A stretch of DNA of 64,000 nt from Thalia democratica (lineage: Eukaryota): contig OZ241829.1 of NCBI GenBank assembly GCA_965202585.1, positions 73,346,001-73,410,000 of the forward strand, read 5' to 3'. This document shows, piece by piece, positions 1-64,000 of the stretch. Position numbers: made by a program. Within the stretch, counting starts at the first letter, position 1. Every line of letters starts with the position of its first letter.

Positions 1-3000
1 AAGCTAGTTTAATGCTGTTTTTTTATTTAAACTATTCTGATAGTAATTAAACTTTTAGTAGGTAATTTTCTACAGTTGTTAAACCATATGTATATGACAC
101 AATTGCTTTAAACACTTATTCTACTTTAATTAATAATTTAAACCTGATAAATAATACTTTCATTTAAATAAAAACTTAGGTTATTGTGTTTAAACAATAC
201 GAACCTTATTTTATTGAAATAATGTAATAAATTTATTTAAAAACTTTATTTATTCATTTTTTTAAAGCATATACTTTCTGTAAAAAATTATTCTAGTCCA
301 TGGTTTTAAACAGCCTTAACACTATAAAGTTTAAAGCTTCAATTAATAACTTAAGCTTCTTCTAACATTGTGGATTTAATTATTGCCAATAAGAATGCAA
401 AATAAAAAATACAACATGAGTTCAGCAAAAAAAGTTTTAAACCTAAAATAAGATGGCAGCTGTGATTAAGTGCGTAAATAAGTTTAAATTTTTTTAATCT
501 GAAACCTCCTTTTAGTTTTTTTTAAGTTTTCAAATATCTAATCTTAAGTTAATAAAAGTCTTGTAAATGTTTCACAGTTTTAATCAACAACTTTAGCTTC
601 TCCTAGTAGAAAATTGCAATTATTTTTTTTTTCTGCATTAAAGTAATGCCATTAAAATTCCAAATTAAATCAATAAAATTTCGTGTCAATAACGTAAAAG
701 ATGGCGACTATGTTTAAGCGTAAAATTAACTTTAAAACTTCAAACTGCTGTTTCAGCTTTCAATGGAAAGTGTTTAGTGACTTCACAGTGCTTTAGCTTG
801 AAGCGGTTATCATACGTCACAAGCAGCTTTTACCGCCAAGCTTGAAACTGAACGAGTTCTGTAAAGCCGTACGAGCCGACTCTAAAAATTAAAAATTGAT
901 GATTTAGAGGAAAAGTTTATTAGTGTAAATACATCGCCCAGCAGCTTCAAACTGTTTCATAATGTTAACGGGAGCTGTCGTGTTTCTACTGTCGTGACGT
1001 CACGTTTTACGGCTTGTTTTTATGACGCGCGTTTGTAAATTTGAGAGAACTTTTCATGGACCTCCGGTTTCGTAGTTAACTTTTTAAATGAAGTAGAAGA
1101 TGGCAGAAGAACAAAAAAAATCGCCCTCAGCTAAATACACGTTTCTGAAACAGGTTGAACAAGTGATTCAATACAAGACGGAGGTTAATAAAACTTGAAT
1201 TTTTTTTTTAAATTAAGACATTTACTGAGTTTCATCGCTAAACGAACACATAAAATGTAATTAATATCCAACTAAATTTAAGAGAATTAACAAAAAACTG
1301 TTCACAAAGTTTTCTTGCGCATCTGCCACAACATTTAAGTGGTTTTTCCTGTTGTTTTGTTAAAGCAAATAAGTATAGTTTTACTTTATTTTTTTAAAAA
1401 TATTCTTTTTAAAAGCAAAAATATGTAACTTAAACAAATATGACATGTTCACCTTAAAAAACCAAGTTGATAAAATAAAAAAAACAACGACAACATTTTA
1501 TTTTGTTACTAAACTTCTTATAGGACTAATAATTTATAAATTTTATGACTAAGAAGCGAGTAGTGTGTAAAAAAATAAAGTACTTAAAGTTTTTTTTTGG
1601 TTATGACGTCATCATTACAGTATATATAGAATATATTTTGATAACTATAGTATATGTAGTTGGTAAAAGCAAGTATCTGAAACATCATAGAATTTAAGTG
1701 AGTCGTTGCAAATGAAAGCTAGGTTGAACTACTTCTGTTTTTAGGTGTAATGTCATAGTTAATGAGTAGATTTATTTGTATTTGTTTCACCTATATTACT
1801 CTGAAGTAATTTTAAAGACATATACGAGTTTTAATAACAATAAAGCAAGTAGTTTTAACACAAACTTATTTAAATTTATGTCGAGTGCAGCTCCAAATGT
1901 TTTCTTAAATACGGTATCAACGAAAACATCGGCGAAAGTCTGCAGAGCAGAAGCCTGATTTTTATTTGTCGTGAGACAATCTTAAGTTTAACAAAATGGT
2001 TGCCAGTTCGATCATCAGGTCACAAATTTTTCGGTTGTGACTGACTGATTAGTCCTAAACGAAACCGGTCTCAGTCTACCGAAGGCTAGTGATCTGATGA
2101 TCCAATTGGCATGATGAGCCACCCTTTGTTTAATAAAGTATTAGTTTTAAAATTATTTAACTTCTATCACAGCTCTAATTTTATTGGTTGCAGCTCGCAC
2201 ATTAGAAAATTCTAAATAGAATTAAAAAAAAAAATATCAGGAAAATAAACGACAATTATAAACCTGAGAAGGCATATTTCAGTATTATTTATGCCGTACT
2301 TCATCACTTTACAAATATCTTATAGTTTGGGATATTAGAACAAAATTTTTATCAGTTTAAAGCTCAATTCCTTAGTTTTTGTATATTTTTTAGTTTTAGT
2401 TTTAGATAGTAAAGCTTTAACAGCGTTTTTTTTTAAAGAAGCAACATATAAATTTAAATCTTTTTGTACATTTTTTTGTCTTTTATTTTGATAGCTTTGG
2501 CCTCTACTTACAAAACATAAACGTAAGTTAAAAAAATTAGTAATAATTTGTTTCTTTTGAAACGTTCTTCCACTTATACAATAAGTATAGCGATAAATAT
2601 TTTTAAACGATTTAGATGCAATATTTGTACCAATTACTTTAAATAGTTCAAATTTCAAATTTTAAATGTTACGACTTTTGAACATATGTATGATATGTGG
2701 TTCTGTTAGTTAAATAAGAAAATATATTTACAACGTTACAGTTGATTTAAACTTGTTAAACTATATTAAGTTACTTTTTGATAGGCAATTATAAACCTTT
2801 TTTTTTTTTTGCTTTGTTTAGTAAGGAAATATTAATTTATAACTAACCAGACAGTTCATAGCTTTGTTGTTAGATCAAATCTGACGTGACCACTTCGATT
2901 GCGACTGACTAAGCTGTAAAAAACATTTGTTAATAATTTTATTTTACATAAGTCTGTTTAATGCTGTTTTAGATTAAACAGATGTACCGTAGAAAAATTA

Positions 3001-63000: not shown

Positions 63001-64000
63001 CCCGTGGCTCCTATACTGCTAACAGTCCCCAAGGGGACCACTTGGCTAATTTTTTGAAACCCTTTTCTAGACCTACTAAGTGCTTGTGCACAGTAAGTTT
63101 AGATATGTTAGTTTAATTCTCATGTCGTTAGAAAAAAGAGGGTTTACAAAAAAAGACTATTATGACGTCACAAGTAACACGAAAAACTCTTATGACGTCA
63201 TAATTTACTTTAGCTTCACAAGCCGAATCTCAAAGCGACTTCACCAACAGGATTTGAAGTCAGAGACATAACTATTAAACTATTCAAATTATTTTAAAAG
63301 ATTGTAAAAATTATCAAAGTTTGCTCTTTGTGAAACAAACATAAATTATTCGAAATTTTTAAATGAGATACCTCTCGAAACAGACAACCTATCCAGTGGA
63401 GTTGTAGACTGGTCAACAAAAAGAGTATAAGCTCATAAGAAGTATACAAAACAGTCACCTTGAAATAAACGGAAACAATTGGCGGCTGAAAGACACCAGG
63501 TTTGATATCGAAGACAATTAAATCACAAAGAGTGGACGGGCAAGGGTATCATTGGCGACAACAAATACATTAGTAAATAAGATTTTCTTATTTGCCGATC
63601 ATATATATGAACGATTGTATTATTTCCTTGGAACGAAAAGACATAAAAATTTGTAAGCACTGTTTACATATTAAGATGGTGCTTACCTTTGGTTCTTGTT
63701 TGTTTTACTATTTGCCGCTGCGATTTAAACTACGAAGTAAGAAAGCAGGTGCACGACTTTTATTGATAAACACATGCAACATAAGTTTGTCTGTTTACAC
63801 TAAATGTAGGACCACCCGAAAGCGAAATATCTACTGATCATCCAACAAATTTTATCCAGCTACCTTTTACTGAAACTAGAATGTTTTTATAGTTGATTGA
63901 ATGGATTTATGATTCGGGTGAAGTATAATGAACGTGAAACAAATATTTGAGTACAGCACGTACAAATATTCTTTAGTTTACATCTTTTAACTAATACTTA

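What the first reader, a model, noticed from the sequence alone, without database searches (positions are those of the whole stretch)
995..63200. About 29 perfect TGACGTCA (CRE) sites in 64 kb
Seen at 995, 1604, 3519, 3716, 10894, 10924, 13724, 15052, 25522, 27507, 28038, 33120, 33139, 39702, 39744, 43902, 45192, 45380, 48303, 48498, 50578, 50608, 52981, 56114, 58857, 61047, 61255, 63163 and 63193. At about 27% GC fewer than one is expected by chance. Duplication inflates the count, but the sites fall in at least five distinct sequence contexts. Established: TGACGTCA is the CREB/ATF bZIP site, and CREB is implicated in cnidarian injury and regeneration responses. Inference: an amplified bZIP-responsive regulatory landscape attached to an orphan gene family.
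Basis: partly seen in the sequence, partly recalled or inferred. Interest (0 to 1): 0.65.

Follow-up and report, generated by a model that had tools for sequence, protein, structure and literature searches.

The report
Conserved CRE sites in tandem non-coding modules

Summary
All 29 TGACGTCA sites are at the stated coordinates. Chance gives 0.6 by shuffling or 1.8 under a 3rd-order Markov model.

Duplication inflates the count. 20 sites fill seven positions (B, C, D, E1, E2, F1, F2) of segments copied 2-4 times at 77-88% identity, including a ~12.7 kb super-unit. The other nine lie in older, diverged copies of the same module families.

I mapped 24 module copies in four families (CD, E, F/G, B), 23 of them on the + strand. 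CD and E are distantly related.

The octamer is retained well above background. It is identical in the partner copy in 48 of 57 directed pairs, against 12-46% for CpG-containing octamers. It is the best-conserved 8-column window for D and nearly so for E1, but not for F.

No coding signal was found. The ORFs after the D sites are translations of 17-bp tandem arrays.

Best reading: selectively kept bZIP sites in promoter- or enhancer-like modules of a non-coding, transposon-rich tandem array. Binding, transcription and the source organism are untested.

The parts
683..1047 (+). CD-type module, old copy. It has the AAGATGGCGAC box at 698, a decayed C site (TGACTTCA plus CGTCA half-site) and an intact D-position CRE at 995. 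A candidate ATG exon follows at 1100-1186.
1564..1721 (+). B module: CRE at 1604 followed after 9 bp by TATATATA.
3417..3757 (+). CD module, copy a. C CRE at 3519 sits at the centre of a palindrome; D CRE at 3716. A transposon insertion cuts the module after 3741.
10851..11050 (+). E module, copy a: CRE pair at 10894 and 10924 (30 bp apart), then GTAGAAATAA aligned under the family's TGTAAAAAT box about 110 bp downstream.
13681..13850 (+). E module, old copy: E1 decayed to TGATGTCA, E2 intact at 13724. It also matches the CD profile.
14974..15142 (+). F module: F1 decayed (TGATGTCA at 15033), F2 intact at 15052.
22597..22706 (+). F/G-type partial copy; both sites decayed (TGATGTCA, TTACGTCA).
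25223..25574 (+). CD module, old copy: AAGATGGCGGC box at 25237, C reduced to a CGTCA half-site, D-position CRE intact at 25522.
27437..27599 (+). G module: ~42-bp units with one intact CRE at 27507, abutting an inverted 17-mer element.
27966..28128 (+). G module: 42-43-bp tandem units with states ATCGTCA, TTACGTCA and an intact CRE at 28038.
30885..31063 (+). E module, old copy, both CREs decayed (TGACTTCA; TCTCGTCA).
33061..33228 (+). F module with both CREs intact (33120 and 33139, 19 bp apart).
39672..39838 (+). G module: 42-bp tandem units with TTACGTCA, then intact CREs at 39702 and 39744.
40627..40735 (-). F/G-type copy, the only module on the minus strand; decayed (TGGCGTCA).
43822..44099 (+). 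CD module, old and truncated copy: box at 43837, CRE at 43902 paired with an inverted GCGTCAC about 35 bp away, no D site.
45090..45427 (+). CD module, copy b. C at 45192 is a 36-bp perfect palindrome carrying 3 compensated pair changes; D at 45380.
48201..48544 (+). CD module, copy c: C at 48303 (36-bp perfect palindrome), D at 48498.
50536..50734 (+). E module, copy c: CRE pair at 50578 and 50608.
52945..53135 (+). E module, old copy: E1 intact at 52981, E2 decayed to TGACATCA.
54143..54321 (+). E module, old copy, both CREs decayed (TGATTTCA; TCTCGTAA).
56055..56221 (+). F module: F1 intact at 56114, F2 decayed to AGACGTCA.
58811..58969 (+). B module, second copy: CRE at 58857; TATA box degenerate.
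60947..61302 (+). CD module, copy d: C at 61047, D at 61255.
63120..63326 (+). E module, copy d: CRE pair at 63163 and 63193.
46875..59627 (+). One full super-unit of about 12.7 kb, in the order CD-E-E'-E''-F-B. The next unit starts at about 59628. Copy a is 2142-3741 plus 8941-12032; partial copy b is 44376-46824.
   Evidence: C-to-C 12,744 bp, D-to-D 12,757 bp, E1-to-E1 12,585 bp

Best explanation
The CREs are bZIP-type binding sites kept by selection inside short non-coding modules of about 170-370 bp.

There are four module families. CD and E are distant relatives; the others are F/G and B.

Most modules carry two CREs: 19, 30 or 42 bp apart in F, E and G, and about 190-210 bp apart in CD. 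In CD and E each CRE is followed by a conserved TATA-like box. In B a TATATATA box lies 9 bp after the CRE.

The modules are arrayed head to tail every 1.3-3 kb by old tandem duplication. A super-unit of about 12.7 kb was later copied again, which lifts the count to 29.

My inferred mechanism is this. Dimers of the CREB/ATF/Jun class bind the palindromes. The modules act as promoters or proximal enhancers for non-coding, transposon-laden transcription units, so one signal would switch on the whole array together.

Shown here: the count, the duplication structure, and the excess retention of the octamer. Inferred: protein binding, transcription start sites, inducibility, and any role in injury response.
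For: Count and chance expectation.

Duplication map.

Module census: 24 copies, 23 on the + strand. The CD profile hits an E copy (13719-13955, E=7e-6) and the E profile hits the C site (3505-3575, E=1.6e-3).

Retention between paralogs (directed pairs): the CRE is identical in 10 of 10 pairs in HSPs at >=85% identity, 32 of 38 at 75-85%, and 6 of 9 below 75%. CpG-containing octamers score 46%, 32% and 12%; all octamers score 43%, 28% and 13%. Counting unordered pairs by hand from the same list gives 24 of 33.

Column identity is 0.96 over the octamer against 0.74 in +-60 bp flanks.

Rank among non-overlapping 8-column windows (windows at least as conserved as the CRE): D 0 of 336, E1 1 of 326, E2 7 of 311, B 10 of 298, G 20 of 295.

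Both alignable old D-position copies (995, 25522) keep the CRE although mean column identity of that alignment is 0.45.

The GTAAAAAT-type box is invariant or nearly so across the 7 CD copies and most of the 7 E copies. CRE plus TATATATA in B.

Shared flank consensus TTR-TGACGTCA-YAA: T in 47 and 43 of 58 half-sites at -3 and -2, purine in 57 of 58 at -1.

CpG o/e is 1.06, so the central CpG is not in a CpG-depleted background.

Against: No transcription start, transcript or bound protein is shown by any search.

TATA-like strings are common in 71% A+T DNA, so only their conservation counts as evidence.

The F sites are not unusually conserved: 114 of 299 and 97 of 302 windows do as well. C (34 of 302) and G2 (88 of 294) are only moderately distinctive.

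Old E copies lost 6 of 8 sites, mostly by CpG transitions. Two of the nine 42-bp G units are fully decayed.

The retention tests condition on an intact CRE in one copy. Their pairs are phylogenetically dependent, so the nominal significance is overstated.

The shared flank consensus may reflect common ancestry of the modules rather than a binding preference.

The only candidate exon next to a module (1100-1186) has no credible homolog.

The organism is not established, so the link to cnidarian injury biology is borrowed.
Confidence: 0.5

Rival explanations
1. The modules are parts of transposable elements, such as an internal promoter or 5' end of a retroposon, an LTR, or a small palindromic MITE. 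On this view the CREs were spread by transposition and serve the element, not the host.
For: Old CD copies share only about 280-370 bp, with unrelated flanks on both sides. Homology starts about 10-15 bp upstream of a conserved AAGATGGCG box. I recall this as resembling the YY1 box near the start of human L1; that is not tested here. The window is full of transposon debris. The C palindrome gives a sub-threshold match to mir-548, a MITE-derived hairpin family. Passages in PMC13465017 report transposons, many unclassified, co-expressed with jun, fos and creb early in Hydra regeneration.
Against: 23 of 24 module copies are on the same strand, which fits tandem duplication better than scattered insertion. 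I saw no target-site duplication at the ends of the old copies (by eye). The D CRE is not part of the inverted terminal repeat of the adjacent 17-mer element. No transposon protein domain is linked to the modules.
Confidence: 0.22
2. This is a neutral by-product. A few chance or ancestral CREs were multiplied by segmental duplication and kept alike by gene conversion, without function.
For: 20 of the 29 sites are in segments duplicated 2-4 times. The F sites are no better conserved than their surroundings. Old E copies decay.
Against: Conservation peaks sharply on the octamer, from about -8 to +15, while flanks sit at 0.74. Conversion tracts would homogenise longer stretches. For D, the octamer is the single best-conserved window across six copies, including two old ones. 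Retention is 2-5 times the background for CpG octamers at every identity band.
Confidence: 0.13
3. For the C class, what is maintained is the long palindrome or hairpin, such as a DNA cruciform, an RNA hairpin or a small-RNA precursor. The CRE would then merely be its centre.
For: The perfect arms are 18 nt in two copies, and the extended hairpin is about 85 nt. It folds at -35 to -49 kcal/mol with z-scores of -4.5 to -6.1. Three base pairs changed on both sides and stayed paired in the 45192 copy, while two pairs are broken in other copies.
Against: Only 4 of the 29 sites are of this kind. The two oldest copies do not fold better than shuffles (z -0.5 and -1.2). All compensated changes are in one copy, so a single templated repair event within the palindrome could explain them. 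There is no Rfam match at gathering score.
Confidence: 0.1

Closest known systems
CRE/TATA promoters of cAMP-inducible cellular genes (somatostatin, c-fos type). Recalled knowledge: full palindromic CREs within about 200 bp of a TATA box are the most inducible.
   Same: A full TGACGTCA palindrome close to a TATA or TATA-like box. Module B has TATATATA 9 bp after the CRE. CD and E modules have conserved GTAAAAAT-type boxes 40-110 bp after a CRE.
   Different: No gene or transcription start is identified. The sites come in pairs, in about 24 tandem module copies, not singly before one gene.
Multi-CRE repeat enhancers of viruses: the 19-bp repeats of the human cytomegalovirus immediate-early enhancer and the 21-bp repeats of the HTLV-1 LTR (recalled, not tested).
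   Same: Short tandem repeat units that each carry a CRE. The G modules are 42-43-bp units with one CRE each.
   Different: Cellular, AT-rich, non-coding context with no viral genes. Unit length and flanks are unrelated as far as I can tell; no sequence comparison was made.
Macrosatellites whose kilobase-sized units each contain a promoter (DXZ4 and D4Z4 type; recalled).
   Same: A head-to-tail array of kilobase-scale units, each with a promoter-like conserved core, amid fast-diverging sequence.
   Different: Units here are heterogeneous, with four module families and a 12.7 kb higher-order unit, and diverge by 12-35%. No conserved ORF is present.
CRE motif instances in injury-responsive accessible chromatin of Hydra (PMC8049744, passages read).
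   Same: The same motif. If the window is from Hydra, these would be candidate members of that responsive set.
   Different: That paper's examples are single promoter sites near Wnt-pathway genes. Nothing in the passages I read describes tandem CRE modules. Its supplementary motif tables were not available to me.

Membership tests
cAMP response element (functional CREB/ATF/Jun site) | Exact 8-bp palindrome TGACGTCA | tested here: met
   29 exact matches
cAMP response element (functional CREB/ATF/Jun site) | Purifying selection on the motif relative to flanks | tested here: met
   48 of 57 directed paralog pairs retained, against 12-46% background. Octamer identity 0.96 against 0.74 in flanks. 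Strong for D and E, weak for F.
cAMP response element (functional CREB/ATF/Jun site) | Position within about 200 bp of a transcription start or TATA box | tested here: inconclusive
   Conserved TATA-like boxes follow the CREs, but no transcription start is known and the DNA is 71% A+T.
cAMP response element (functional CREB/ATF/Jun site) | Occupancy by a bZIP protein and signal-dependent activation | not testable with these tools
   Needs ChIP or CUT&Tag, ATAC-seq and reporter assays.
cAMP response element (functional CREB/ATF/Jun site) | Unmethylated central CpG | tested here: inconclusive
   Window CpG o/e is 1.06, so there is no sign of germline CpG loss. Methylation itself is unmeasured.
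Protein-coding (orphan) gene family attached to the CREs | Reading frames kept open and in register between paralogs | tested here: not met
   ORFs after the D sites differ in frame between copies. Amino-acid identity is 35-59% for copy a's ORF against its paralogs, where the DNA segments are 80-87% identical.
Protein-coding (orphan) gene family attached to the CREs | Excess of synonymous or third-position changes | tested here: not met
   14 ORF pairs show no third-position excess. The scan of all ungapped blocks finds no window with a clear synonymous excess; the best is 5 to 1.
Protein-coding (orphan) gene family attached to the CREs | Homologs or domains in protein libraries | tested here: not met
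   Pfam: nothing above cut-off in 146 ORFs. The 99-aa ORF has 5 weak unnamed hits. The 32-aa exon read has 1 spurious hit inside an Ig-repeat protein.
Transposable-element family carrying the CREs | Terminal repeats or target-site duplications at the module ends | tested here: not met
   None seen at the old CD copies (by eye). The D CRE lies outside the inverted repeat of the neighbouring element.
Transposable-element family carrying the CREs | Dispersed copies in both orientations, genome-wide | not testable with these tools
   Within the window 23 of 24 copies are on one strand. No eukaryotic genome collection was available.

The most novel reading that the evidence does not exclude
The locus is a co-regulated array of CRE/TATA-driven non-coding transcription units that read straight into inverted arrays of 17-bp repeats. 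In all four copies of the unit an inverted pair starts about 80 bp after the D CRE, and two G modules abut such elements. One bZIP-activating signal, such as injury, would then produce bursts of hairpin RNA or small-RNA precursors from a tandem array. On this reading the hAT-like insertions that cluster within 100 bp of CREs mark these modules as open chromatin in the germ line or stem cells.
Probability: 0.1. Interest if true: 0.7.

Novelty: new member of a known kind. Interest (0 to 1): 0.42.

Why it matters
If the modules are bound and active, the locus offers about two dozen natural variants of a paired-CRE module: intact, half-decayed and fully decayed, with spacings of 19, 30 and 42 bp. 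These sit side by side, ready for reporter and occupancy assays. That would make it a compact test bed for how bZIP sites are kept or lost after duplication.

If the window is from Hydra, it is also a candidate injury-responsive non-coding locus, or a source of CRE-bearing repeats. It would connect two published observations. One is that the CRE is the top injury-responsive motif (PMC8049744). The other is that repeats, many of them unclassified, are switched on early in regeneration (PMC13465017).

If the modules are inactive, the finding is just a duplicated repeat region.

Tried and rejected
Rfam at gathering score gave 0 hits, and the tRNA scan gave 0. So the modules are not promoters of a known small-RNA gene array. 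Rfam at E<=1 gave only 3 sub-threshold miRNA-hairpin matches, all on palindromes or MITE-like inverted repeats.

Pfam on 146 stop-to-stop ORFs of at least 60 aa gave nothing above cut-off. The GIY-YIG-looking ORF 36044-36439 is a retroelement fragment. Its hits carry precomputed PF00078 and PF26215, and RVT_1 was confirmed in one hit. It is unrelated to the CREs.

tblastx of the window against itself, minus the blastn-covered pairs, gave 0 hits.

The candidate first exon at 1100-1186 (29 codons, with a GT donor) was too short for the search for homologous proteins. A 32-aa read-through of the same frame, searched alone, gave one weak internal match to an Ig-repeat protein, which I take as spurious. 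I built and searched no joined or spliced model.

The idea that the D CRE belongs to the terminal repeat of the adjacent 17-mer element was rejected.

CpG-decay bias as an explanation is not relevant here. CpG o/e is 1.06, and CpG octamers are kept about as well as all octamers.

Literature searches found no paper describing tandem CRE modules in Hydra. These searches were narrow, and one search was swamped by 'hydra-' word starts.

The organism could not be determined. The protein hits were unnamed ENA records and I did not trace them.

Supplementary tables of the cited papers were also closed.
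Full report
**Observation.** Dinucleotide shuffles give a mean of 0.62 and a maximum of 4. A 3rd-order Markov model expects 1.83. Among the 256 palindromic octamers it ranks 5th, behind four pure A/T words, and the next CG-centred palindrome has 8 copies. TGACGTC occurs 30 times and GACGTCA 32 times, so nearly every 7-mer is the full palindrome. The window is 29.1% G+C with CpG o/e 1.06 and has no N.

**Duplication structure.** Self-BLAST and a three-copy alignment show a unit present as:
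- copy a: 2142-3741 plus 8941-12032;
- partial copy b: 44376-46824;
- copy c: 46875-51698;
- copy d: 59628-64000.

A second unit covers 30011-35558, 53261-58827 and part of 14320-17995. Together they form a super-unit of about 12.7 kb; the C-to-C, D-to-D and E1-to-E1 distances are 12,744, 12,757 and 12,585 bp. Copies are 77-88% identical.

BLAST of +-300 bp around each site gives 7 clusters: 995 alone; 1604 with 58857 (B); eight C and D sites; eight E sites; eight F and G sites; 25522 alone; 43902 alone. 20 of the 29 sites fill seven positions (B, C, D, E1, E2, F1, F2) in these duplicated segments.

**Module families.** Profiles built from each cluster and run over the window find 24 module copies:
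- CD: 7 copies (683, 3417, 25223, 43822, 45090, 48201, 60947);
- E: 7 copies (10851, 13681, 30885, 50536, 52945, 54143, 63120);
- F/G: 8 copies (14974, 22597, 27437, 27966, 33061, 39672, 56055, and 40735 on the minus strand);
- B: 2 copies (1564, 58811).

23 of the 24 are on the + strand. The singleton sites 995 and 25522 turn out to be D-position sites of old CD copies, and 43902 lies in another old CD copy. The CD profile also hits an E copy (E=7e-6) and the E profile hits the C site (E=1.6e-3), so these two families are distant relatives.

**Anatomy of the modules.**
- CD modules run: an AAGATGGCG(A/G)C box (ATGGCG in 7 of 7 copies); about 85 bp; the C site; about 85 bp; GTAAAAATT; about 115 bp; the D site; about 40 bp; GTAAA(A/T); then GAGAGA. 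Beyond that point homology among old copies ends.
- E modules run: CRE1, 22 nt, CRE2, about 110 bp, TGTAAAAAT.
- F modules have two sites 19 bp apart.
- G modules are 42-43-bp tandem units with one site each.
- B has TATATATA 9 bp after the CRE.
- Over all 58 half-sites the flanks read TTR: T in 47 and 43 of 58, purine in 57 of 58. This may be a binding preference or shared ancestry.

**Retention between paralogs.** I conditioned on an octamer in one copy and asked whether the aligned partner copy has the identical octamer (directed pairs):

| HSP identity | CRE retained | CpG-containing octamers | All octamers |
|---|---|---|---|
| >=85% | 10 of 10 | 46% | 43% |
| 75-85% | 32 of 38 | 32% | 28% |
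| <75% | 6 of 9 | 12% | 13% |

Counted by hand as unordered pairs from the same list, 24 of 33 are retained. Mean column identity is 0.96 over the octamer against 0.74 in +-60 bp flanks, with the peak spanning about -8 to +15.

**Rank test by site class.** The number of non-overlapping 8-column windows at least as conserved as the CRE is:

| Site class | Windows at least as conserved |
|---|---|
| D | 0 of 336 |
| E1 | 1 of 326 |
| E2 | 7 of 311 |
| B | 10 of 298 |
| G | 20 of 295 |
| C | 34 of 302 |
| G2 | 88 of 294 |
| F2 | 97 of 302 |
| F1 | 114 of 299 |

So focal constraint is strong for D and E, moderate for B, G and C, and absent for F.

**Decay is visible too.** Old E copies keep only 2 of 8 sites, and the losses include the CpG transitions TGATGTCA and TGACATCA. 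Among one-mismatch variants in the window these two are the largest class, 13 of 48. Of the nine G units, 4 are intact, 3 keep the CGTCA half-site and 2 are decayed. The tests are conditioned on intact sites and the pairs share ancestry, so nominal significance is overstated.

**The C palindrome.** Only the C class is a long palindrome, with perfect arms of 18 nt in two copies. As RNA, the four recent copies fold at -35 to -49 kcal/mol with z-scores of -4.5 to -6.1. The old copies give z -2.1, -0.5 and -1.2. In the four-copy alignment, 3 pairs changed on both sides and stayed paired, all in the 45192 copy, and 2 inner pairs are broken in other copies. This points either to selection for symmetry or to templated repair within a palindrome.

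**No coding gene family found.**
- Pfam finds nothing above cut-off in 146 ORFs of at least 60 aa.
- 14 paralogous ORF pairs show no third-position excess.
- A scan of all ungapped paralogous blocks finds no window with a clear synonymous excess.
- tblastx finds nothing beyond what blastn already aligns.
- ORFs that begin 41 bp after the D sites, such as 61296-61592 with a signal-peptide-like start, run through 17-bp tandem arrays (CGTGCAAAAGTGACGC) that stay open in all three + frames through the arrays. They differ in frame between copies.
- The 99-aa ORF has 5 weak unnamed hits.
- The only exon-like feature next to a module is 1100-1186 (ATG, 29 codons, GT donor). It was searched alone as a 32-aa read-through and gave one spurious match. 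I built and searched no joined or spliced model.

**Surroundings.** The region is rich in foldback or MITE-like elements. Inverted pairs of 17-mer arrays start about 80 bp after every D site and abut two G modules. The D CRE is not part of their terminal repeat. A 5.2 kb element with terminal arrays of 31-bp repeats and an 8-bp target-site duplication sits 18 bp after the D CRE of copy a.

**Literature.** I read passages only.
- The preprint 10.1101/2022.05.17.492329 and PMC13465017 report transposons, many unclassified, expressed early in regeneration together with jun, fos and creb.
- None of the passages describes tandem CRE modules. Supplements were closed.
- No call shows that this window is cnidarian.

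**Verdict.** The sites are amplified, and most classes are selectively retained, as expected of working bZIP sites in promoter- or enhancer-like modules. The attached 'orphan gene family' is not supported, and binding and inducibility remain untested.

Statements about YY1 boxes, CRE/TATA inducibility, viral CRE repeats, macrosatellites and hAT insertion preference are recalled knowledge, not results of any call.

Noticed in passing
window 3742-8940 (target-site duplications at 3734-3741 and 8941-8948): A 5.2 kb foldback-like transposon whose inverted ends are arrays of a 31-bp repeat (18-20 copies each). It is flanked by an 8-bp target-site duplication, GTTTCAGT, and is inserted 18 bp after the D CRE of copy a only. 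No protein domain was found inside it.
   Followed up: partly
window 9007-10148, 45481-46621, 48581-49820, 61338-62414; also 11877-12488, 51526-51857, 27565-27900, about 39300-39726: Inverted pairs of 17-bp tandem arrays (CGTGCAAAAGTGACGC), which look like foldback or MITE elements. The pair at 51526-51857 has 152-nt arms that are 90% complementary with a 28-nt loop, and gives a sub-threshold MIR5048 match. Several start within 100 bp of a CRE, which may hint at insertion into open chromatin.
   Followed up: partly
window 698, 3433, 25237, 43837, 45106, 48217, about 60963 (also 450 and 1097): An AAGATGGCG(A/G)C box is conserved at the start of all 7 CD modules (ATGGCG in 7 of 7 copies), about 85 bp before the C site. 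AAGATGGC occurs 10 times on both strands, against 0.66 expected. I recall it as resembling the YY1 promoter motif; that is untested.
   Followed up: partly
window 35891-36084 / 36233-36426 and ORF 36044-36439: A 194-nt inverted repeat (92% complementary) overlaps an ORF that is 90% identical to an unnamed 313-aa protein. More distant hits carry reverse-transcriptase domains, so this is a retroelement fragment.
   Followed up: partly
window 1100-1186: A possible first exon: AAGATGGCA start context, 29 codons (MAEEQKK...), and a GT donor, about 105 bp after the CRE at 995 and about 60 bp after a TATA-like GTAAATTT. No credible homolog was found.
   Followed up: partly
whole window: CpG o/e is 1.06 and GpC o/e is 1.23, so there is no CpG depletion in a 29% G+C region.
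   Followed up: no
window 30272-30436 (-), 38578-38811 (-), 53524-53745 (+): Short related ORF-like stretches (NGDIQQ[LI]D[DE]PLEGATEV on the minus strand). Only 30272-30436 and 53524-53745 lie in the second duplicated unit; 38578-38811 lies outside it. The opposite-strand reads are 60% identical over 52 aa between 38606-38803 and 53524-53745. Origin unknown.
   Followed up: no
window 1980-2130: A stretch with a tRNA-like B-box look (CCAGTTCGATC), possibly a SINE or MITE fragment. ARAGORN finds no tRNA.
   Followed up: no
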